A stretch of 64,000 nt of DNA from a virus (IMGVR_UViG_3300031420_000495:193407-257406); one strand, 5' to 3'. Positions 10,052 through 58,959 are shown, numbered from the stretch's first letter. Numbers and translations: made by a program. Notes: a model not told the origin generated them from the letters alone.

Positions 10052-11203
10052 TCAGTCTTCGTGGCCGAACTTCTTGGCGATTGCATCTTCGATTGCTTGA
10101 TGCACGCGCTCGGCCGTTTCGTCCCACGAGTAGTGAGCCACCAGCTCTTTGCCGAGCACGACACGCTGCGCAGCTTGCGTCGGCTCTTCGATCAGGAAGT
10201 TCTCGATGTGACGGATGAACTCGTCGTAGTTGTTGCCGATCTGCACAACCGAACCGTACAGCTCGACGACATCGTGGATCGCGGTCGAGACGATCGGCTT
10301 TTCTGCCGCCATGTATTCGAGCGTCTTGGTCGGCGAGATGAACTTCGTCGCGTCGTTCAGTGCGAACGGCATCGTGCAGACGTCCCAGCCTTGAACGATC
10401 TGCGGCAGCAGGGTGTACGGCTGCGAGCCGAGATAGTGGATGTTGTCGCGCTGTGGCAGGCTTGCCGGATCGATCTTGACGACTGGGCCGACCATGACGA
10501 CATGCCAGCGCGGATTTGCGTCTGCGATCGCGGCAACCAGGTCGATGTCGAGACGTTCGTCGATCACGCCGAAGAAGCCGATGCGCGGATGCGGAATGTC
10601 GTGTTCGAGTTGATCTTCGACATGGGTCTCGGCTTCCAGCTGTGCGGCACGTTCTGGCGAGTAGTGGTTCGCGTCGACGCACGATGGCAGCGACAGCGTG
10701 TCCGGACGAATCGCTTGTTTCGCACGTGCGAGCGATGGTCCGCCGGCGATGACGAGGTCTGCGGTTTGCAGCAGTTCACGTTCGCGATCTTTCAGTTCCT
10801 TCGGAGCATGCGCGAACATCGACAGCTCGTCCATGACGTCGAAGATGACGAAGTCGGGTTCGAAGTATTCCTTCAGCGGGAACGCTTGCGGAGTGTAGAA
10901 CCAGATGCCGAAGCCGTCGTCGGTCAGCACGTCGTTCTCGAGCAGCCACTCGCGTACGAGTGGGCCGATCACTTTCATCTGCTGATCGTTGAAGCCCCAA
11001 CCGTCTTCGACGGTATGCGGCACGACGACGGTGATGTTGTCGTGCTTTTCGGTCTTGTTTGCTTCGATGAAAACCGAACCAGTATTCAGTGGTTCTTCGA
11101 CGAAGACGATGTTATAGTGTTGTGCCAGACGCGTCAGAAGATGCTGCGGACGCTGAAAGACGAAGTTCCAACGGAGGTGCGAGAATACGATAAGGGTTTT
11201 CAT
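10052..11203 (-). CDS. Glycosyltransferase (GT-B fold)
   Basis: FSHLRWNFVFQRPQHL, IGFFGVIDERLD, SPTKTLEYMAAEKPIVST; host-like family often linked to UDP-galactopyranose mutase. Confidence 0.9.
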   Translation of the reverse strand: MKTLIVFSHLRWNFVFQRPQHLLTRLAQHYNIVFVEEPLNTGSVFIEANKTEKHDNITVVVPHTVEDGWGFNDQQMKVIGPLVREWLLENDVLTDDGFGIWFYTPQAFPLKEYFEPDFVIFDVMDELSMFAHAPKELKDRERELLQTADLVIAGGPSLARAKQAIRPDTLSLPSCVDANHYSPERAAQLEAETHVEDQLEHDIPHPRIGFFGVIDERLDIDLVAAIADANPRWHVVMVGPVVKIDPASLPQRDNIHYLGSQPYTLLPQIVQGWDVCTMPFALNDATKFISPTKTLEYMAAEKPIVSTAIHDVVELYGSVVQIGNNYDEFIRHIENFLIEEPTQAAQRVVLGKELVAHYSWDETAERVHQAIEDAIAKKFGHED

Positions 11204-14097: not shown

Positions 14098-14757
14098 TTA
14101 GTCGTCATCGCCACCGAAGATACCCAACAGCTGCAGCAGGTTCTGGAAGATGTTGATGATGTCCAGATACAAGCTCAGTGTTGCACTGATGTACGACGTT
14201 TCTCCACCATTCACGATCTGCTGCACGTCGTAAACGATGTACAGCGAGAAGATCACGATGGCCACGATCGAGAACAGAATCACGAGTGCCGGCAACTTCA
14301 GGAAGATGTTCGCAATACCTGCGATAATCAACACGATCAGTGCGATGAATAGGTACTTGCCCATGCCCGAGAAATCTCGTTTCGTCACCGTGGCATACGC
14401 GGCAAGAGAGACGAAGATCGCAGCCGTTCCGCCGAACGCCAACATAATCAGCTCGGCACCATTGGTAAACTGTAACGTTCGAACTAATAGCGGACTTAGT
14501 GTTGCGCCCATCAATCCAGTGAAGAGCAGCAACACAGGAATACCTGCGGCCGAGTTTCGCAATGCTTGGATTGCGAAGATGAAGCCGAACATGACGAGCA
14601 GAACCAGCAGCCAACCCCAACCAGAGATTGCAGGCAGACCGAATTTTACGCCGAGGTAGGCGCCGATAACAGTTGGCACCATCGTTGCGGCCAACAGCAG
14701 ATAGGTGTTACGCAGTACAGTATTACTCACTGCGCTTTTGCTCAGAGAAACGTCCAT
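14098..14757 (-). CDS. yccA: Bax inhibitor-1/YccA family membrane protein
   Basis: VLRNTYLLL, 7 TM segments, YDVQQIVNGGETSYISATLSLYLDIINIF. Confidence 0.93.
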   Translation of the reverse strand: MDVSLSKSAVSNTVLRNTYLLLAATMVPTVIGAYLGVKFGLPAISGWGWLLVLLVMFGFIFAIQALRNSAAGIPVLLLFTGLMGATLSPLLVRTLQFTNGAELIMLAFGGTAAIFVSLAAYATVTKRDFSGMGKYLFIALIVLIIAGIANIFLKLPALVILFSIVAIVIFSLYIVYDVQQIVNGGETSYISATLSLYLDIINIFQNLLQLLGIFGGDDD

Positions 14758-14775: not shown

Positions 14776-14849
14776 TGGTACCCCTAGAAGGAATCGAACC
14801 CTCCGTCAGCAGCTTAGAAGGCCGCTCGCCGAAATCCATCGGTAGGGGT
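14776..14849 (-). tRNA. tRNA-Arg(TCT), minimal D-arm
   Basis: Hand-folded; loop CT-TCT-AA, TTCGATT T-loop, CCA; C8, D region CCGATGGATTTCGG. Confidence 0.8.
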
Positions 14850-14853
14850 GTTG

Positions 14854-15022
14854 TAAGACCATCAACGATGGGACTACTTAATATCATCTTGCAAGAATGA
14901 TCGCACCAGTTTGTCCGCGAGCCCGCCCCAACGTAAGTTACGTCAGCCTGCCGACTGGACGTGTGATTTTCTCGATGGAGGTTGCCCTCATCGGCATAGT
15001 GCTGCTCAGCCGATGGTCTTAT
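14854..15022 (-). ncRNA. Structured ncRNA candidate 5' of tRNA-Arg(TCT)
   Basis: 10-bp terminal inverted repeat TAAGACCATC/GATGGTCTTA; internal GAGG-GCAA-CCTC tetraloop and further stems. Confidence 0.5.
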
Positions 15023-15025
15023 TTA

Positions 15026-15265
15026 TCAGTAGTTGAAAGCTCGATGCTCGTTGAGCTGTTCTTCCTTGTCTTTCGAGAGGTTGTAAACCTCCATGATCCG
15101 TTGCATCTCGCCAGGATTTGCAACGCGCTTGTGGGCTTCTTCTTGGTTCGCACAGAAGACTGGATAGTCGTCCCAATCGTATGTATCACATACGACCACG
15201 AGATGGCTTGCACCCTGTGCAACACCGCGATCGAACCATTCAGCAATTTGCGATTTCGTTGTCAT
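15026..15265 (-). CDS. Hypothetical protein
   Basis: Start trimmed to MTTKSQ behind AAGGA. Confidence 0.75.
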   Translation of the reverse strand: MTTKSQIAEWFDRGVAQGASHLVVVCDTYDWDDYPVFCANQEEAHKRVANPGEMQRIMEVYNLSKDKEEQLNEHRAFNY

Positions 15266-15272
15266 GATTTCC

Positions 15273-15689
15273 TTAATCAGGTAGTCGATAAGAGTCCCAA
15301 CCATACCACGCTTTCGTCGCAACGCGATTGCCTTTTCCAGGTCGACGGATTGCATATTGCGTTCTGCCGATGCTGCTGTCTTTGTCCGTAACACGCTTGC
15401 GATAATCTCGCGCATCACGGATCGTCGTCCCTTTCAGTTGACCGTTACCACCACAGTAGTGAAACTTCATGCCGGCGCGAACAAGAACTTCCAGCTTTGC
15501 CCATTCACGCACATTGCGTTTTGGCGGAGCGCGAAAAGCAGTTCCGCAAAACAACATTTGCTTCTTGCATGTTGGGCACTTGTGATTGCCACCAGAATAC
15601 TTAGTTTTGTGAAAGCACACGCGACAGTCGAAGCAAGCATATCGCGCAGAGCTTGTGTACTTCGCGTAAAGCCTTATGCCTGTATCCAT
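15273..15689 (-). CDS. Zn-ribbon hypothetical protein
   Basis: CFDC..CPTC..G..FRAPPK. Confidence 0.75.
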   Translation of the reverse strand: MDTGIRLYAKYTSSARYACFDCRVCFHKTKYSGGNHKCPTCKKQMLFCGTAFRAPPKRNVREWAKLEVLVRAGMKFHYCGGNGQLKGTTIRDARDYRKRVTDKDSSIGRTQYAIRRPGKGNRVATKAWYGWDSYRLPD

Positions 15690-15751
15690 GGCATCTCCTT
15701 AAAAATGATAGTCGCATTATACACTACGACTATCATTTCTCCGAGATATTT

Positions 15752-17233
15752 TTAGTTGGCGTAGTTATCCACGACTTCTTTCAGGTTGTGGTGAAGGATA
15801 TATGATCCGGATTTTTCACCGGCCCAGAAGCACTTGTCTCCGACGGTGATGTGCTGAACCATGATGTCGCCCATGCCGTGAACCAGCGTAATGCGTTCCC
15901 ACCCAATCGTGTGCGTTCCGTCTTCTGCATCATGACGAACTGGAACTTCCATGCCGAGCAATTCGCGCGGGTTCACGTAACCATATCGTGTTGGAATCGG
16001 TGCAGTTTCCGAACAGACCAGTGAAGCACCTGATTCAGTTACGAGACGGAAACCAGGTTGCAGTGTTGGCTTCGACATCGTGACAACGCCTTGATTTTCT
16101 TCAAATGTTTCTGGATCAGCAAGCATCATGCTATTACCAACTTCAATTTGACCTGCCAACATTCCATCTGGCAGAATAGCATTCACGGATACGCAACCAC
16201 CACCTCCACCTCCGCCTCCACCGCCAGCAGATGGCGCAACGTATTTCGCACCGGTAGTTAACGCATGTTGTTGAACTGTCGATGGATTTGGGTAATCTCG
16301 CAGAAGCGTAAACTCGACTCGACCTTTTGCACCATTGCCACCAGTGAGACCACTGATTCGAGCTCTGTTATCTGCGTTGAACATGTTCGACGAATCATTT
16401 GGCTTTGGTTGATAGCTTGTGTCACCAGTCAGTGTTCGTGTTCCCCAGTATCCGCCCGCTCCACCAGTACCTGTGCCTTGACGATACGTCGGTGAAGTCA
16501 AAAGAACAGCTGCTGTACTTGGGCCTGCAACAACGCCAGAGTTTGATGATCCAGCGTAACCGCCTGGCCAACCGTCTGCACCGTCACCGCCGCGAGTTAC
16601 GGAATACTGGTTGTCGTTGATACCACCTGCACCTCCGCCTCCGCCACCACCTCCACCAGCGCCGACGAGCGTAGACGGAATACCGCCACGTGTCACGCTG
16701 ATTGAAGATACTTGACCAGCACTTCCTGAAGCGCCGGCATCACCCATGAAATAACCACCACTCGTGCCAAGTCCGGTCCAGTGCCCGAACCCGCCAACGC
16801 CACCATATCCGCCATCGCCAACAACAATTGTGAGAACTTCACCCGGTGAAATTGCAGCTGAGAACCAAACTTCTTCGCCCATACCCGCAGAGCCACCACT
16901 GCCACCCGCAGCCGATGCGTTCCAGTTGTATTCACCAGCACCACCGCCTCCTCCGCCACCACCTTCACCGCCGATGACTGTTCCGGAAAATCCGCGTGGT
17001 CCATTAGGCACCGTGAAGTAATACGTTCCAGGTGAAGAGTAGAGATAGTATGTCTGCGCTGGCATGTTAGCTTTGCCACGCAAGAAGTCCATCGAGATAG
17101 TTGTTTGATCGCCAGTGACGCCAGCCAAGATGCGAACGTTTGGATCATTCAAGTTGAGGCCTGCTACGCTAACGCCAAGCTCGGCAGCAACTTGATCCAT
17201 GCCAATTGAATTTGGACTAACTGGTAATGTCAT
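15752..17233 (-). CDS. Glycine-rich tail fibre/adhesin-like protein with C-terminal Hint domain
   Basis: MTLP..IGMDQVAAELG N-terminus, poly-Gly repeats, G8-C|VSVNA start and ..ILHHN end of Hint fold. Confidence 0.75.
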   Translation of the reverse strand: MTLPVSPNSIGMDQVAAELGVSVAGLNLNDPNVRILAGVTGDQTTISMDFLRGKANMPAQTYYLYSSPGTYYFTVPNGPRGFSGTVIGGEGGGGGGGGAGEYNWNASAAGGSGGSAGMGEEVWFSAAISPGEVLTIVVGDGGYGGVGGFGHWTGLGTSGGYFMGDAGASGSAGQVSSISVTRGGIPSTLVGAGGGGGGGGGAGGINDNQYSVTRGGDGADGWPGGYAGSSNSGVVAGPSTAAVLLTSPTYRQGTGTGGAGGYWGTRTLTGDTSYQPKPNDSSNMFNADNRARISGLTGGNGAKGRVEFTLLRDYPNPSTVQQHALTTGAKYVAPSAGGGGGGGGGGCVSVNAILPDGMLAGQIEVGNSMMLADPETFEENQGVVTMSKPTLQPGFRLVTESGASLVCSETAPIPTRYGYVNPRELLGMEVPVRHDAEDGTHTIGWERITLVHGMGDIMVQHITVGDKCFWAGEKSGSYILHHNLKEVVDNYAN

Positions 17234-17242
17234 AGTGTTTCC

Positions 17243-17971
17243 TTAAAGCAAGAAGTCGCTGATTTCGCGGTTGATGCGAATGTCAGCGTCATTGACGATT
17301 GGGTCGAGAATGACTGGTTGATTTCCACGCATAGCCATGTTGCGTGTACCAAAGTCCAGACGATCATCATCAGTTAGCAGCGCACGGATTTTCGTCATGA
17401 CTTCAACCAGGCTGTAGAGTTCTGGGCTGATATTTGGAAGGAATTGTTCAAGATCAACGGAAATGCGTTGCTGTTTCTGATGATCGCTCAGCAACCATTT
17501 GAGAACACCACGCGGAGTCTTTGACGCGGTTGCCCAGCGGAAAACAGTTTCCATATCAGTGAAGTTGTTACGCTCACCACCAATTTGCTTGATGACGTCT
17601 TCGTCTTTGAAGAAGTCGATCTGGTCATTACCGTGAAATGGCGTGAGAAGTTCCATCTTCACATAGTTGATGTTTTCAGCACCATCGCCGATCTTCAAGA
17701 ACTTTGGAAGAACACGAACTTTTGACTTGAACTTTGGAAGCCATGGACTTGGGTTGTCAACACAGAAGTTTGCAAACTTTGCATACGCACTGTCTTGATA
17801 CCAGAATTTGAATACGTCCGTGCCATTGGTAAGAGCGACCCCAAGTGCACCTTTACCAAGTGGACGCAGTTTTGTTTTACCAGCGGCGAACTCGGCCTTG
17901 ATAAAATCAACTGCCTCTGCAGGTGTAAGTTGAGACAGGCGTTTTGCGCCTGACAGTTCATACAGTTTCAT
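17243..17971 (-). CDS. Protein-kinase-like protein
   Basis: LGKGALG, VFK, DFGTRN catalytic loop, ILDP. Confidence 0.7.
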   Translation of the reverse strand: MKLYELSGAKRLSQLTPAEAVDFIKAEFAAGKTKLRPLGKGALGVALTNGTDVFKFWYQDSAYAKFANFCVDNPSPWLPKFKSKVRVLPKFLKIGDGAENINYVKMELLTPFHGNDQIDFFKDEDVIKQIGGERNNFTDMETVFRWATASKTPRGVLKWLLSDHQKQQRISVDLEQFLPNISPELYSLVEVMTKIRALLTDDDRLDFGTRNMAMRGNQPVILDPIVNDADIRINREISDFLL

Positions 17972-18002
17972 AATACCTCATCATGTTATATTGAGGTATT
18001 TA

Positions 18003-18075
18003 TGGCACCACTGGAAGGAGTCGAACCTTCGCAACCAAGGATCGGAACCTCGGCGCCGAATCCGTCGGCAGTGGT
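18003..18075 (-). tRNA. tRNA-Arg(CCG), minimal D-arm
   Basis: Loop TT-CCG-AT; D region CCGACGGATTCGG; CCA. Confidence 0.8.
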
Positions 18076-18076
18076 A

Positions 18077-18382
18077 TTAGTCTTTCTTCTTTTTCTTCGC
18101 GTCTTCTTTGGCGTGTTGTTTCGCCAAGTCACGTTGGAGCATCGCCATTGCAGCGTGGATTGCTTCACCGTTTTTCAGATTCTTGCCAGCGCGATTGATG
18201 TAGAACTGAAGCATGCGAATTGCGGAACCCAGACCTTTCGGGCTGACGCTTTTCTTTTTGTACTCGTTGTAAATCTCTTGAGCCGTGCCGGTGTGCGTTC
18301 CCTTCTTTGCAAAGGTTCGTGCTGGACCGTCAGTCACAGGTTGTGACCAATTCTTTTCACCAAGCAATTCTTCGACAAGCAT
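18077..18382 (-). CDS. DUF3175-like protein
   Basis: SAIRMLQFYINRAGKNL motif. Confidence 0.75.
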   Translation of the reverse strand: MLVEELLGEKNWSQPVTDGPARTFAKKGTHTGTAQEIYNEYKKKSVSPKGLGSAIRMLQFYINRAGKNLKNGEAIHAAMAMLQRDLAKQHAKEDAKKKKKD

Positions 18383-18405
18383 AATAATCTCCCAATGTAG
18401 AGAGA

Positions 18406-26205: not shown

Positions 26206-26212
26206 ATTGTTT

Positions 26213-26287
26213 TGGTGGGGCGCCGCAGAATCGAACTGCGCTCTCTCCGGTTAAGAGCCGGGACTTCGCCAGCAAAGTTTGCACCCC
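26213..26287 (-). tRNA. tRNA-Lys(CTT)
   Basis: Loop CT-CTT-AA; A8. Confidence 0.87.
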
Positions 26288-26292
26288 ATGTT

Positions 26293-26367
26293 TGGTATCG
26301 CCGAGGAGAATCGAACTCCCGTTCCCAGATTGAAAGTCTAGTGTCCTAACCGTTAGACGACGGCGAT
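26293..26367 (-). tRNA. tRNA-Glu(TTC), canonical
   Basis: Loop CT-TTC-AA. Confidence 0.93.
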
Positions 26368-26374
26368 ATAATTC

Positions 26375-26447
26375 TGGTACCACCGGCAGGAGTCGAGCCT
26401 GCGTAATCGCGCTTCGTAGGCGCAACACCGAATCCCTCGGCGGTGGT
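26375..26447 (-). tRNA. tRNA-Arg(ACG), minimal D-arm
   Basis: Loop CT-ACG-AA; D region CCGAGGGATTCGG; T-loop CTCGACT. Confidence 0.8.
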
Positions 26448-26454
26448 ATAATTC

Positions 26455-26781
26455 TTATGCAGCTACACGATCAGGTTTCTGTGCATCGAGCATTTCGATA
26501 TACGCGTGCGGCGAAGTGCCGACATCCAGCGTATGAATTTTCTCGAAGCCGTTTTCCTTCGTAATCATCGAGTCTTTCGACTTGATGCCGCCAGTGTACT
26601 TGCCGTCGCCTTTCTTGTGCATCAGATCGCCGGAAGCCGGATCGATCGAACCCCAATCAGGGGTGTGTGCATCAGCGAGAACTTCGACGTAGTACTTTGC
26701 ACCAGTGCGGATTGATGATACAATGAAGCGTCCGGTTTCGTCAGTGTTCGTGAGGAATCGTTTGGTGAAGTCGGCGTTCAT
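26455..26781 (-). CDS. Hypothetical protein inside the tRNA array
   Basis: Start trimmed to MNADFTKRF behind AGGAG. Confidence 0.8.
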   Translation of the reverse strand: MNADFTKRFLTNTDETGRFIVSSIRTGAKYYVEVLADAHTPDWGSIDPASGDLMHKKGDGKYTGGIKSKDSMITKENGFEKIHTLDVGTSPHAYIEMLDAQKPDRVAA

Positions 26782-26811
26782 GGTGTATCTCCTGCTCTGG
26801 TTATGGGTAAT

Positions 26812-26884
26812 TGGCAACCGCGTAGAGAATCGAACTCTATCCAATTTCGCTCAGAACGAAACGTGCCTGCCAAGGCTCACGGCA
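26812..26884 (-). tRNA. tRNA-Gln(CTG), minimal D-arm
   Basis: Loop TT-CTG-AG; T1.T72; D hairpin GCCT-TGGC-AGGC. Confidence 0.8.
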
Positions 26885-26890
26885 TCTGTT

Positions 26891-26982
26891 TGGCTCCCCG
26901 AGGTGGACTCGAACCACCATAACCGCCGAAGCGGTATACGTCTGATTAACAGTCAGGTCTCTTACCATTAGAGTACCGGGGA
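26891..26982 (-). tRNA. tRNA-Asn(GTT) with 22-nt variable arm
   Basis: Loop CT-GTT-AA; V hairpin ACCGC-TTCG-GCGGT. Confidence 0.85.
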
Positions 26983-26990
26983 ATTGTTAC

Positions 26991-27075
26991 TGGTCGTTGG
27001 GGTAGGAATTGAACCTACGTTGTCAATAATGACCTGGATTATCGGTCCAGTGCCTAACCATTCGGCCACCCAACG
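26991..27075 (-). tRNA. tRNA-Ile(GAT) with long variable arm and C33
   Basis: Loop CC-GAT-AA; Leu-like 3-bp D stem; 15-nt V region; A73. Confidence 0.82.
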
Positions 27076-27173: not shown

Positions 27174-27247
27174 TGGAAGGGGAGGATGGAATCGAACCAT
27201 CGCACTCTGGGTCAAAACCAGATGCTCTACCACTAAGCTACACCCCT
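27174..27247 (-). tRNA. tRNA-Gln(TTG), canonical size
   Basis: Loop TT-TTG-AC. Confidence 0.9.
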
Positions 27248-27335: not shown

Positions 27336-27409
27336 TGGCAGGCCATCAGGGAATCGAACCCCAGTCAAGAGTTTTGGAGACTCGTGTGTTACCACTACAC
27401 CAATGACCT
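27336..27409 (-). tRNA. tRNA-Trp(CCA), canonical; first tRNA of the array
   Basis: Loop CT-CCA-AA; G73. Confidence 0.93.
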
Positions 27410-49389: not shown

Positions 49390-50496
49390 TTACGACAGAG
49401 TAAAACTTTTCGCGTTGAGCGACGCTGCAACAATTTCACGACGAGCATTGGCAATTGCTTCACCCAACGCTTTGCCTTGTACTTCTGGGAACTGCGATGC
49501 TGCCACCACTTTCGTGGCTTCCGCGATGTCGGCCAACTGCTGAGCCGAGATAAACAACTTGTTCTGCATGCTTTCTTCCAACTTCATCGCTTGAATCAAG
49601 TCAGCGAAGTCAGAACCTTGTGACCAGACTTTGGTCGTCACCAACAACGCGAACACGTTGTCAGCGCTTGCTTCTTCAGTGCAACGAACACGGTTGATGT
49701 TCGTATACAGCTTCTGTGTTCGAATCGGTGCCGATTGTATCACAGGTTTGCGCGGCCATGCTGCTGCGGTCAACGCGGTAAAGTACATCAAACGTTCTTC
49801 AGAACTTTCGATGCGCTTGACTGCAAAACCGGCATGCGTCATTGCAACATGATCGAACTCGAACAAGCCAGCAAAGAAGTCGACGTGTTCGAACGCGCCC
49901 ATGATGTCCAACACATGGAAGAAGTGTCCGGCCATGTTTTCACCCAAGGCCTTTCCCATCTCGGCCCAGAACCGCTCGTGTGGCAAGTGGTTCAACTCGC
50001 CGTCGGCAACCATCTCACGCGCCAACGACATCGTCGAGTTGGCGATCGTGAAACCGAAGTAACGAGCCGCGAACCGTGCCAAGCGAACAACACGCAACGG
50101 GTCTTCAGCAAATGCCGGCGACACGTGACGCAAGACTTTCACTTCCAGATCGTAACGGCCGTCGAACGGATCGATGATTTCGCCGGTCTCAATGTCTTTG
50201 GCCATCGCGTTGATGGTCAAGTCGCGACGCGACAAGTCTTCGGTCACAGTGACGGTCGGATCGAAGTCGACGGCGAAGCCATGATAGCCGACGCCGGTCT
50301 TACGTTCGATGCGAGCCAGCGCGTATTCGTCTTTGGTTTCCGGATGCAAGAACACAGGAAAGTCCGCACCGACTTGTTCGTAGCCCAATGCGATCATTTC
50401 TTCTGGTTTTGCACCAGTGACCAGGTAGTCGACGTCTTTGGGCTTTAAGCCCAACAGCTCGTCGCGGACTGCTCCGCCGACAATGTAGATTTTCAT
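49390..50496 (-). CDS. cca: CCA-adding tRNA nucleotidyltransferase (class II)
   Basis: [38 protein letters not shown]; start trimmed to MKIYIV. Confidence 0.95.
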
Positions 50497-50729
50497 ATTA
50501 GTGTCCTGTTCAATTCGACCAGTTGTTTGTACGGCCCGAGGTCCGCATCGGTGAAGCAAGAAGAAGGTGCAATCTCTGCGTTGTTCAAGACTTGCTCTGC
50601 CAGCCACAACTTCGCATTGTACTGGGCATCGTAGCCGAACACTTTGCGACTACCGACGTAGCCAGCAAAAAGGCCTTGTGCGTTCTTGCGGACGCTAACA
50701 AGGCCTGTGGGTTCTGAGGGAGTTGTCAT
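50493..50729 (-). CDS. Hypothetical protein
   Basis: Start trimmed to MTTPSE. Confidence 0.65.
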
Positions 50730-58878: not shown

Positions 58879-58953
58879 GTGGTACCACCGGCAGGAATCG
58901 AACCTGCGTCCCAGGAGTAGGAATCCCGTGTATTATCCACTATACGACGGTGG
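58879..58953 (-). tRNA. tRNA-Arg(CCT), canonical
   Basis: Loop TT-CCT-AC; CCA. Confidence 0.92.
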
Positions 58954-58959
58954 TGTTGA

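What the first reader, a model, noticed from the sequence alone, without database searches (positions are those of the whole stretch)
14776..26884. Family of tRNAs with a minimal D-arm and no U8 (Arg x3, Gln x2, Trp)
Seen: Arg(TCT) 14776, Arg(CCG) 18003 and Arg(ACG) 26375 share CCGA-NGGATT(T)-CGG directly after the acceptor stem. Gln(TTG) 23849, Gln(CTG) 26812 and Trp 23928 have 3-4-nt D loops. The acceptor-to-anticodon linker is 14-17 nt instead of 19, and U8/A14 are absent. Identity elements persist: G18-G19-A20 for Arg and a weak 1-72 pair for Gln. Recurrence across six genes and three amino acids argues for selection rather than decay. Inference: an altered elbow or core that evades host tRNases, s4U8 crosslinking or modification-dependent toxins.
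Basis: partly seen in the sequence, partly recalled or inferred. Interest (0 to 1): 0.65.

Follow-up and report, generated by a model that had tools for sequence, protein, structure and literature searches.

The report
Compact-core phage tRNAs for Arg, Gln, Trp
Six tRNA genes of this giant phage are real and conserved, but their core is shortened (no U8 linker, tiny D-loop, longer anticodon stem) in the way otherwise known from pyrrolysine and mitochondrial serine tRNAs, and standard gene finders, including a published annotation of a cultured phage, miss this design.

Summary
Observation confirmed. The window is the last 64 kb of a 257-kb jumbo-phage record with about 30 tRNA genes on the minus strand. 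The six named genes have a 14-17 nt acceptor-to-anticodon segment. Every other tRNA parsed here has 18-21 nt.

In all six the D helix starts 0-1 nt after the acceptor stem and the D-loop is 3-6 nt. G18-G19 is kept, plus A20 in Arg. The T-loop and the encoded CCA end are normal.

Sixteen Arg genes of this type, from the window and related phages, show covariation in all four helices. This is the layout of tRNA-Pyl and mt-tRNA-Ser(UCN), here in Arg, Gln and Trp tRNAs.

The design occurs in at least 20 further IMG/VR contigs, in MAG tRNA arrays, and in cultured Ralstonia phage RsoM2USA. That phage's published tRNAscan-SE table lacks both of its copies.

The genes are most likely working tRNAs charged by host synthetases. 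Selection rather than decay is supported. The elbow is intact and only the core is altered. Evasion of host tRNases is untested.

Earlier notes of this scan describe a different rewired phage tRNA-Arg on other DNA, not this design.

The parts
14776..14849 (-). tRNA-Arg(UCU), compact core. Layout: 7-bp acceptor, no connector, D stem CCGA/UCGG, D-loop UGGAUU, 1-2 nt, 6-bp anticodon stem, T arm, A73-CCA. It lies alone, just upstream of ORF 14098-14757.
   Evidence: Read by hand and parsed by my scanner. Model R1 scores it 83.5 bits. Rfam tRNA gives only 26.6 bits, below the gathering score of 29. ARAGORN at default settings misses it. The cloverleaf is the minimum-free-energy fold at -30 kcal/mol.
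18003..18075 (-). tRNA-Arg(CCG), compact core. D arm is CCGA-CGGAU-UCGG directly after the acceptor, with a 7-bp anticodon stem, a 3-nt variable loop and G73-CCA. It lies alone, upstream of ORF 17243-17971.
   Evidence: R1 scores it 88.4 bits. Rfam gives no hit at E<=10. ARAGORN finds it only at -ps95, with a shifted register.
26375..26447 (-). tRNA-Arg(ACG), compact core. D arm is CCGA-GGGAU-UCGG, with a 7-bp anticodon stem, variable loop UAC and A73-CCA. It sits in the array. Its acceptor and T stems are identical to those of the canonical Arg(CCU) at 58880.
   Evidence: R1 scores it 94.4 bits. Rfam gives no hit. ARAGORN's register (26375-26444) is rejected by comparison with the family.
23849..23921 (-). 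tRNA-Gln(UUG), compact core. It has a U1.U72 mismatch, C8, D stem GAUC/GAUU, D-loop UGGU, an A.C at the 26-44 position and G73-CCA.
   Evidence: R2 scores it 91.2 bits. Rfam gives only a sub-threshold tRNA-Sec hit of 33.8 bits.
26812..26884 (-). tRNA-Gln(CUG), compact core. It has U1.U72, A8, D stem GCCU/AGGC, D-loop UGGC, a G.U at the 26-44 position (6-bp anticodon stem) and G73-CCA.
   Evidence: R2 scores it 93.7 bits. Rfam gives no hit. It is the only Gln(CUG) tRNA in the phage record.
23928..23997 (-). tRNA-Trp(CCA), compact core, 70 nt including CCA. The acceptor is GGGUCAG/UUGACUU (three G.U pairs), there is no connector, the D stem is CAUC/GAUG, the D-loop is UGG, and it ends G73-CCA.
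   Evidence: R1 and R2 both place the ends at 23928-23997. This is the weakest of the six: the cloverleaf is not the minimum-free-energy fold and few homologues were found.
25063..25137 (-). Canonical tRNA-Arg(ACG), the ordinary twin of the compact Arg(ACG).
   Evidence: ARAGORN 117.3 and Rfam 52.1 bits.
27174..27247 (-). Canonical tRNA-Gln(UUG), the ordinary twin. It has A1-U72 and U73.
   Evidence: Rfam 68.1 bits. Structure.
27336..27409 (-). Canonical tRNA-Trp(CCA), the ordinary twin.
   Evidence: Rfam 57.2 bits. Structure.
58880..58954 (-). Canonical tRNA-Arg(CCU). It shares its acceptor (ACCACCG/CGGUGGU) and T stem (GCAGG/CCUGC) with the compact Arg(ACG). This shows that compact and canonical forms are close kin within the phage.
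26455..26781 (-). Small ORF of 108 aa with unknown function, lying between compact Arg(ACG) and compact Gln(CUG). It was used as the marker to fetch 15 related tRNA-array loci.
   Evidence: No Pfam or PHROG hit.
49390..50607 (-). Phage tRNA nucleotidyltransferase (CCA-adding enzyme). Listed as context: the phage invests in tRNA maturation.
   Evidence: phrog_2244, E=1e-102.

Best explanation
The six genes are working elongator tRNAs built on a compact core. What is shown:
- A 7-bp acceptor stem runs straight (Arg, Trp) or after one non-U nucleotide (Gln) into a 3-5-bp D stem.
- The D stem is capped by a 3-6-nt loop that keeps only G18-G19 (plus A20 in Arg).
- One or two nucleotides later comes an anticodon stem lengthened to 6-7 bp, at the expense of position 26 and of the variable loop. 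That loop shrinks to about 3 nt in Arg and 4 nt in Gln.
- The T arm, the 7-nt anticodon loop (U33, R37), the discriminator and the encoded CCA are ordinary.

What is inferred:
- The missing 8-9 connector is offset by the extra anticodon-stem pairs (2+5, 1+6, 0+7). This follows the structural-compensation rules worked out for mt-tRNA-Ser(UCN) and tRNA-Pyl. The molecule would still form an L with a normal D-loop/T-loop elbow and still fit EF-Tu and the ribosome.
- The tRNAs are cut out of the array or mRNA transcripts and charged by host ArgRS, GlnRS (or GluRS plus amidotransferase) and TrpRS through the retained identity elements. Those are A20, C35 and A/G73 for Arg; an open 1-72 pair, G73 and the anticodon for Gln; and G73 and CCA for Trp.

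Most likely purpose (speculative, about 0.3): the phage keeps a second set of decoders next to canonical twins. This set lacks U8, A14, R15, 16/17, A21, the 26.44 purine pair and 44-48. Host or rival factors that read or modify that core would then fail to act on it. Such factors include tRNA-targeting immune nucleases and enzymes that make s4U8, dihydrouridine, m7G46 or acp3U47.
For: Structure:
- Hand parsing and my scanner agree.
- The cloverleaf with an abutting D helix is the minimum-free-energy fold for the three Arg genes and Gln(CUG).

Conservation and covariation:
- In 16 compact Arg genes, 95% of cells are paired and 19 of 23 pairs change on both sides. None of 500 shuffles reached the observed value, and all slid controls collapse.
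- D-helix pair 9-20 is CG/UA and pair 10-19 is GC/AU.
- Extra anticodon-stem pair 24-42 is paired in 16/16 genes with 5 pair types. Pair 23-43 is paired in 12/16.
- In the Gln D stem all four pairs covary among 4 genes.

Discreteness:
- Segment length is bimodal. U8 is present in 0/23 against 137/163. A standard pair at 26-44 occurs in 18/23 against 33/163, p=7e-8.

Decoding identity:
- Every compact Arg-type gene carries an Arg anticodon: ACG, CCG, GCG, UCU and CCU in the alignment, plus UCG in the scan. A20 is near-invariant.
- The compact genes complete the phage's decoding sets. They are its only CCG and UCU Arg tRNAs and its only CUG Gln tRNA.

Spread:
- Found in 8 of the 15 related loci and in about 21 of 25 IMG/VR pattern hits.
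- Found in MAG tRNA arrays, where Gly, His, Ala, Cys, Asp and Trp genes use the same design.
- Found in cultured phage RsoM2USA.

Precedents:
- M. alvus tRNA-Pyl has no acceptor/D connector and a 4-nt D-loop, and it translates well.
- mt-tRNA-Ser(UCN) combines a 1-nt connector, a small D-loop, a 6-bp anticodon stem and a 3-nt variable loop with G18G19/TPsiC (PMC7609411; compensation rules cited in PMC4394434).
- AriB of PARIS makes base-specific contacts with D-loop U16-U17 (PMC12409363).
Against: There are no expression, processing, modification or aminoacylation data for any member.
- The host is unknown.
- The L-shape is inferred from secondary structure and analogy, not modelled.
- The covariation set mixes orthologues and paralogues, so cell counts overstate the number of independent events.
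- The Trp gene rests on one window copy, one MAG copy and a weak L005 look-alike, and its cloverleaf is not the minimum-free-energy fold.
- In Gln the sixth anticodon-stem pair is G.U in two genes and A.C in two, so it is suggestive only.
- Nothing in the genome links the design to a particular nuclease or defence. No phage synthetase, colicin-D-like gene or RtcB was found, and the record is only about 71% complete by CheckV.
- RsoM2USA's copies end ACCC and ACCU rather than CCA.
Confidence: 0.65

Rival explanations
1. They are working tRNAs, but the compaction has nothing to do with evasion. One version: it is a near-neutral design tolerated only where the synthetase does not read the core (ArgRS, GlnRS, TrpRS). 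Another version: it is selected for self-sufficient folding. More Watson-Crick pairs and fewer tertiary or modification-dependent contacts would let the tRNAs fold when phage tRNAs are made in bulk and host modification enzymes are limiting.
For: The compact Arg genes fold to the cloverleaf at -29 to -30 kcal/mol. Their canonical twins reach only -18.5 to -24.8 kcal/mol, and canonical Arg(ACG) does not give the cloverleaf as its minimum-free-energy fold. The isotype bias (13 of 23 compact genes are Arg and 7 are Gln) fits a tolerance filter. Compact and canonical Arg genes share acceptor and T stems, so the two forms interconvert easily.
Against: The design is held with compensatory changes across phages whose marker protein is only 47-68% identical. 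In other arrays it also extends to Gly, His, Ala, Cys and Asp. That weakens a filter limited to Arg and Gln.
Confidence: 0.27
2. They are tRNA-like RNAs with a job outside decoding. They could be decoys or sponges for host tRNA-targeting nucleases or immune sensors. They could also be RNase P/Z processing marks ('punctuation') in polycistronic transcripts.
For: Two of the Arg genes (14776 and 18003) lie alone, directly upstream of protein genes on the same strand.
Against: The anticodon stays within the Arg box in all Arg-type members while changing among six Arg anticodons. U33, R37, A20, the discriminator and CCA are kept. The compact genes also fill otherwise empty decoding slots. A decoy or a cutting mark needs none of this.
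Confidence: 0.06
3. They are decaying tRNA pseudogenes left by duplication in a redundant array.
For: Canonical twins exist for Arg(ACG), Gln(UUG) and Trp. Rfam and ARAGORN scores are low or absent.
Against: The Arg helices are 95% paired with abundant compensatory change. All six window genes have intact CCA ends. The architecture is discrete and repeated across many viral contigs and a cultured phage.
Confidence: 0.02

Closest known systems
tRNA-Pyl, especially the Methanomethylophilus alvus type (review PMC7609411)
   Same: Both have no nucleotide between the acceptor and D stems, a very small D-loop (4 nt in M. alvus), an anticodon stem longer than 5 bp, a 3-nt variable loop and a 7/5 acceptor/T branch. 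tRNA-Pyl is known to work on bacterial ribosomes.
   Different: tRNA-Pyl lacks G18-G19 and T-Psi-C, carries a CUA anticodon and is charged by PylRS. The phage tRNAs keep G18-G19 (plus A20 in Arg) and a standard T-loop. They carry sense anticodons for Arg, Gln and Trp and presumably use ordinary host synthetases. The Arg anticodon stem reaches 7 bp.
Mammalian mitochondrial tRNA-Ser(UCN) (type I mt-tRNA)
   Same: Both have a shortened acceptor/D connector, a small D-loop, an extended anticodon stem and a 3-nt variable loop. Both retain the G18G19/TPsiC elbow contacts. The L-shape of mt-tRNA-Ser(UCN) is explained by structural compensation (PMC7609411; PMC4394434).
   Different: The mitochondrial tRNA has a 1-nt connector and a 6-bp stem. 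It is A/U-rich and works with a dedicated mitochondrial machinery. The phage Arg and Trp tRNAs have 0 nt and 6-7 bp. All six window genes are 53-64% G+C and must work with a bacterial machinery.
Canonical class I bacterial and phage tRNAs (Rfam RF00005), including this phage's own twins at 25063, 27174, 27336 and 58880
   Same: The acceptor stem, T arm, anticodon loop, discriminator, CCA end, array context and identity elements are the same. Compact Arg(ACG) and canonical Arg(CCU) even share identical acceptor and T stems.
   Different: The compact genes have no U8 or N9. They lack A14, R15, 16/17 and A21. The 26.44 purine pair is replaced by Watson-Crick pairs, and the variable loop is shorter. 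Their scores fall below the RF00005 gathering score or are absent.
Allo-tRNAs and other 8/4 or 9/3 tRNAs (Mukai et al., PMC5389517)
   Same: Both are non-standard cloverleafs found in bacteria and their phages. Both have tetraloop-like D-loops and longer anticodon stems.
   Different: Allo-tRNAs have an 8/4 or 9/3 acceptor/T branch and long variable arms. The six genes here are 7/5 with very short variable loops.

Membership tests
Canonical class I tRNA (Rfam RF00005) | Score at or above the family gathering score (29 bits) | tested here: not met
   Arg(UCU) scores 26.6, Trp 26.3 and Gln(UUG) 25.7 bits. Arg(CCG), Arg(ACG) and Gln(CUG) give no hit at E<=10.
Canonical class I tRNA (Rfam RF00005) | Two-nucleotide connector with U8 between the acceptor and D stems | tested here: not met
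   The connector is 0 nt (Arg x3, Trp) or 1 nt that is A or C (Gln x2). Position 8 is T in 0/23 compact genes against 137/163 canonical.
Canonical class I tRNA (Rfam RF00005) | 7-bp acceptor stem, 5-bp T stem with GTTCRA-type loop, and 7-nt anticodon loop with U33 and R37 | tested here: met
   Acceptor cells are 99% paired and T-stem cells 100% paired.
Canonical class I tRNA (Rfam RF00005) | 5-bp anticodon stem topped by a non-Watson-Crick 26.44 pair, and a 4-5-nt variable loop | tested here: not met
   In Arg the 26-44 position is a covarying standard pair in 16/16 genes, and the next pair is formed in 12/16. This leaves about 3 nt of variable loop.
[quoted passage not shown] | 0-1 nt acceptor/D connector plus a small D-loop | tested here: met
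   Connectors are 0-1 nt and D-loops 3-6 nt in all six genes and in their relatives.
[quoted passage not shown] | Anticodon stem of 6 bp or more and a variable loop of about 3 nt | tested here: met
   This is met for Arg. For Gln it is inconclusive: the sixth pair is G.U in two genes and A.C in two, and the variable loop is 4 nt. Trp has a G.U sixth pair.
tRNA-Pyl proper | CUA anticodon, no G18G19/TPsiC, and a PylRS partner | tested here: not met
   The anticodons are sense anticodons for Arg, Gln and Trp. GG and TTCGA are retained. PylRS was not searched for.
8/4 or 9/3 tRNAs (allo-tRNA, tRNA-Sec-like) | 8- or 9-bp acceptor stem with a 4- or 3-bp T stem, usually with a long variable arm | tested here: not met
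   The 7-66 pair covaries (GC, AU, UA) and the T stem is 5 bp, 100% paired. Variable loops are short. The RNAfold alternative, with a 6-bp acceptor and a 5-bp D stem, is not supported by covariation.
Functional aminoacylated tRNA | Expressed, processed at both ends and charged with the cognate amino acid | not testable with these tools
   There is only indirect support: identity elements, the CCA end, conserved anticodon class and covariation.

The most novel reading that the evidence does not exclude
Phages and mobile tRNA arrays carry a widespread second tRNA architecture: no U8 connector, a minimal D-loop, a 6-7-bp anticodon stem and a 3-nt variable loop. It works on ordinary bacterial synthetases and ribosomes. 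It exists because it cannot be recognised by core-reading host factors, namely immune tRNA nucleases and modification-dependent toxins. The canonical-plus-compact gene pairs would then be a counter-defence bet-hedge, and the tRNA counts of large phages would be systematically underestimated.
Probability: 0.25. Interest if true: 0.85.

Novelty: new variant of a known kind. Interest (0 to 1): 0.62.

Why it matters
[quoted passage not shown] Compact-core tRNAs have been treated as curiosities of pyrrolysine decoding and of mitochondria.

Here the same structural solution turns up in phage tRNAs for common amino acids. It is conserved with covariation and spread over many uncultured phages. It is also present in a cultured jumbo phage.

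Three consequences follow:
- Annotation: the published RsoM2USA table lists no Arg(ACG) or Arg(CCG) tRNA, yet both exist in compact form. Phage tRNA repertoires and codon-compensation analyses are therefore biased.
[quoted passage not shown] This covers synthetases, EF-Tu, the ribosome, modification enzymes and tRNA-targeting defences.
- Engineering: these are natural, bacterial-compatible scaffolds with a tRNA-Pyl-like core, of interest for designing orthogonal tRNAs.

Tried and rejected
- ARAGORN's registers for Arg(ACG) (26375-26444), Arg(CCG) (18004-18076) and Trp (23928-24005) are rejected. The family alignment and both covariance models place the ends at 26447, 18075 and 23997.
- RNAfold's alternative for Arg(CCG) and Arg(ACG), a 6-bp acceptor with a 5-bp D stem using G7, is rejected. 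Column 7 covaries with column 66, not with column 22.
- An 8/4 or 9/3 reading is rejected.
- No phage-encoded ArgRS, Glu/GlnRS or Trp/TyrRS was found that could form a private pair. The record is incomplete.
- No phage colicin-D-like tRNase was found (self/non-self idea), and no RtcB repair ligase.
- The search for related loci with ORF 17243-17971 returned nothing.
- The closest cultured phages by tail sheath, PaBG and NCTB at 40-44% identity, have no compact Arg tRNA.
- Megablast of the array against cultured phages gave only a 39-nt match to Vibrio phage nt-1.
- Seven full-text searches found no description of this design in phages or tRNA arrays. The library is not complete, so this is not proof of absence.
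- The genome search 'relatives' is not available for virus records.
- Phage codon usage (CGU/CGC 68% of Arg codons, AGA 4%, CGG 10%) was not informative without a known host.

Full report
**Context.** The window is the last 64 kb of a 257,406-bp IMG/VR virus record. It encodes a tail sheath 44% identical to that of Pseudomonas jumbo phage PaBG, a DNA helicase and a tRNA nucleotidyltransferase. G+C is about 51%. ARAGORN finds 29 tRNA genes in the whole record. All lie in this window and on the minus strand: 28 between 21010 and 27409, and one at 58880. Rfam's tRNA model passes only 18 of them, so the array holds many deviant genes. The host is unknown.

**Checking the observation.** I read the six genes on the minus strand. 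I also parsed every tRNA with a script that fixes the acceptor, T arm and anticodon arm and reports what lies between.
- The three Arg genes are Arg(UCU) 14776-14849, Arg(CCG) 18003-18075 and Arg(ACG) 26375-26447. Each starts with a fully paired 7-bp acceptor stem (A1-U72), followed at once by CCGA, a 5-6-nt loop NGGAU(U), and UCGG.
- Gln(UUG) 23849-23921 and Gln(CUG) 26812-26884 have one non-U nucleotide (C or A), then a 4-bp D stem and the tetraloops UGGU and UGGC.
- Trp(CCA) 23928-23997 has no connector, D stem CAUC/GAUG and loop UGG.
- The stretch from acceptor to a 5-bp anticodon stem is 17, 16, 16, 16, 16 and 14 nt. The other 22 tRNAs parsed in the window have 18-21 nt.
- All six end in N73-CCA and have normal GTTCGA-type T loops (CTCGA in Arg(ACG)) and U33/R37 anticodon loops.
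- Standard tools do poorly. ARAGORN at default settings misses Arg(UCU) and Arg(CCG) and mis-registers Arg(ACG) and Trp. Rfam gives 26.6, 26.3 and 25.7 bits for three of the six and nothing for the other three.

**More than chance, and not decay.** A 108-aa ORF inside the array (26455-26781) retrieved 15 loci from IMG/VR phages, several of them complete genomes of 340-435 kb. The marker protein is 47-68% identical across them. These loci hold similar arrays.
- In 217 tRNAs from the window and 13 distinct loci, the acceptor-to-anticodon segment is bimodal. It is 14-17 nt in 23 genes (13 Arg, 7 Gln, 1 Trp, 1 Ala, 1 Met) and 18-22 nt in the rest.
- Position 8 is T in 0/23 compact genes against 137/163 canonical genes (p=4e-16). 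Arg is enriched among compact genes (p=6e-9).
- A covariance model built on the three window Arg genes plus one relative scored further members at 50-79 bits. Ordinary tRNAs score 45 bits or less.
- I aligned 16 compact Arg genes. All helices are supported: 95% of cells are paired, 19 of 23 pairs change on both sides, no shuffle reaches the observed values, and sliding partners by 1-3 columns drops pairing to 33-49%.
- The D helix that abuts the acceptor is real. C8-G21 is invariant, pair 9-20 is CG or UA, pair 10-19 is GC or AU, and the fourth pair is optional.
- The four 73-nt Gln genes show changes on both sides at all four D-stem pairs.
- Every Arg-type member keeps an Arg anticodon, yet six different ones occur. 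The GGA of the D-loop is nearly invariant. That points to selection on arginine identity, not only on shape.

In the Arg alignment, the two nucleotides before the 5-bp anticodon stem pair with the first two nucleotides of the 'variable loop'. Pair 24-42 is formed in 16/16 genes with five pair types, and pair 23-43 in 12/16.
- The true Arg layout is therefore: 7-bp acceptor, 0 nt, 3-4-bp D stem, 4-6-nt loop, 1 nt, 6-7-bp anticodon stem, about 3-nt variable loop, 5-bp T stem.
- In canonical tRNAs of the same loci the 26-44 position is mostly A.A, G.A or A.G. It is a standard pair in only 33/163, against 18/23 compact genes (p=7e-8).
- In Gln the position is G.U (CUG genes) or A.C (UUG genes). 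Both can adopt wobble geometry, but with four genes this is only suggestive.

**Comparison with known tRNAs.**
- This is the architecture described for tRNA-Pyl and for mammalian mt-tRNA-Ser(UCN). Those have one nucleotide, or none in M. alvus tRNA-Pyl, between the acceptor and D stems. They also have a small D-loop, a 6-bp anticodon stem and a 3-nt variable loop. mt-tRNA-Ser(UCN) additionally keeps G18G19/TPsiC (PMC7609411).
- Reviews attribute the preserved L-shape of such tRNAs to structural compensation (PMC4394434, citing Steinberg and Cedergren).
- The phage Arg genes fit a simple sum of connector plus anticodon stem: 2+5 canonical, 1+6 for mt-Ser(UCN) and tRNA-Pyl, 0+7 here.
- They are not tRNA-Pyl: they have sense anticodons and an intact GG/TPsiC.
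- They are not 8/4 or 9/3 tRNAs: the 7-66 pair covaries and the T stem is 5 bp.
- They do not pass the RF00005 threshold.

**Spread.**
- A narrow pattern (G-CCGATGGA-N0-3-CGG, spacer, GTTCGANTCC) hit 25 IMG/VR stretches, four of them in contigs already held. By my parse about 21 are compact Arg genes with 6-7-bp anticodon stems.
- The same pattern hit 50 stretches in one genome per species of GTDB. About seven are compact Arg tRNAs. All of these lie in MAG contigs inside dense arrays of 7 to 23 tRNA genes per 8-kb locus.
- In those arrays Gly, His, Ala, Cys, Asp and Trp genes of the same compact design also occur.
- blastn found the design in the cultured Ralstonia jumbo phage RsoM2USA. Compact Arg(ACG) lies at 86155-86227 (75.6 bits) and compact Arg(CCG) at 78725-78796.
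- The paper on that phage used tRNAscan-SE 2.0. Its Table S6 lists only two Arg(TCT) tRNAs and none for ACG or CCG (PMC8504454). Both compact genes were therefore missed.
- PaBG and NCTB lack the design.

**How it most likely works.**
- Shown: the secondary structure, its conservation, the identity elements, the encoded CCA, and placement in the array with the usual 5-9-nt spacers or just upstream of ORFs.
- Inferred: processing, charging by host ArgRS, GlnRS and TrpRS, an L-shape with a normal elbow, and use in translation.
- No phage ArgRS, Glu/GlnRS or Trp/TyrRS was found in the 257 kb held.
- The compact genes are the phage's only Arg(CCG), Arg(UCU) and Gln(CUG) tRNAs. Arg(ACG), Gln(UUG) and Trp also exist as canonical twins.
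- Compact Arg(ACG) and canonical Arg(CCU) share identical acceptor and T stems, so the two designs interconvert within the lineage.
- Lost: U8, N9, A14, R15, 16/17, A21, the 26.44 purine pair and most of 44-48. These are the tertiary core and the sites of s4U8, dihydrouridines, m7G46 and acp3U47.
- Kept: the elbow. So 'altered core' is right and 'altered elbow' is not.

**Why the phage keeps them.** This remains open.
- Evasion of core-reading host factors is plausible. AriB of PARIS contacts D-loop U16-U17, and a U16C change impairs cleavage (PMC12409363). I found no direct evidence here, and no colicin-D-like or RtcB gene in the phage.
- A rival is self-sufficient folding. The compact Arg genes fold to the cloverleaf at about -30 kcal/mol, against -18.5 to -25 kcal/mol for the canonical twins.
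- Another rival is tolerated drift in isotypes whose synthetases ignore the core.
- Decoy or processing roles and pseudogene decay fit the conserved anticodon class and the covariation poorly.

**Earlier notes of this scan (AI notes, not tested by me).**
- Notes on this genome say that the array pairs canonical with deviant isoacceptors, which agrees with what I see.
- Notes on other genomes describe a different non-cloverleaf phage tRNA-Arg, with the D-loop moved behind the anticodon arm.
- If both hold, phage tRNA-Arg is a hot spot for core redesign.
- The retrieved notes did not describe the compact design reported here.

**Verdict.** The design is a new variant of a known kind, namely compact-core tRNAs. 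It is widespread in phage and mobile tRNA arrays and is missed by standard annotation.

Noticed in passing
L096, L099, L103, L107, L116, L125 (Solirubrobacterales genomes; e.g. L096 about 1845-1925): Six Solirubrobacterales assemblies share a conserved compact tRNA-like element. It has a GCCCCCG acceptor, an abutting CCGA-UGGAYG-UCGG D arm, a covarying 6-bp stem, an 8-nt loop UCUCGCAA, a normal T arm and no encoded CCA. ARAGORN finds nothing there in the two loci I ran (L096, L099). Its identity is unknown.
   Followed up: partly
L082, L093, L097 (MAG contigs from GTDB): These loci hold dense arrays of 14-23 tRNA genes in 8 kb. In them Gly(GCC), His, Ala, Cys, Asp and Trp genes also have the compact design: 0-nt connector, 3-5-nt D-loop and a paired 26-44 position. 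The design is therefore not limited to Arg, Gln and Trp.
   Followed up: partly
L027 5994-6066 (= MG752970 86155-86227) and L029 1501-1572 (= MG752970 78725-78796): Cultured Ralstonia phage RsoM2USA has compact Arg(ACG) and Arg(CCG) genes that are absent from its published tRNA table. The first lies under an annotated 'hypothetical protein' CDS (RsoM2USA_130) on the other strand. They end ACCC and ACCU rather than ACCA.
   Followed up: yes
window 24362-24489 (-): A tRNA-like gene of about 128 nt with normal acceptor, D and T arms and a large structured insertion in the middle. Rfam tRNA scores it 31.9 bits over 24365-24489.
   Followed up: no
window 24203-24276 (-) and 25303-25378 (-): Two more low-scoring tRNA-like genes, seen only at a relaxed ARAGORN threshold. 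One is a 'Pro(GGG)' with a 4-bp anticodon stem and a degenerate T-loop. The other has an 8-nt anticodon loop and no CCA.
   Followed up: no
window 24837-24923, 25859-25942, 25951-26035, 26123-26205, 26891-26982, 26991-27075 (-): Lys, Asp, Glu (x2), Asn and Ile tRNAs carry long variable arms. Glu 25951 folds as 8/4 in ARAGORN and scores 39 bits on Rfam tRNA-Sec.
   Followed up: no
window 14098-14757 (-): The ORF directly downstream of compact Arg(UCU) is a Bax1-I/YccA-type membrane protein (PF01027, E=3.5e-52). This is an unusual gene for a phage.
   Followed up: no
window 10574-10612: A 39-nt stretch is 97% identical to Vibrio phages nt-1 and CZ01. It was the only megablast match of the region to cultured phages.
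   Followed up: no
L010 933-1007; L030 2092-2169 (RsoM2USA): tRNAs with a CUA anticodon (amber suppressors) occur in a related IMG/VR array and in RsoM2USA.
   Followed up: no
L051 about 1500-1575 (G001 213242-213314): A Gly(UCC) tRNA in a related 343-kb phage has U8, a 4-bp D stem and a CUGG tetraloop (17-nt segment). It is an intermediate form between canonical and compact.
   Followed up: no
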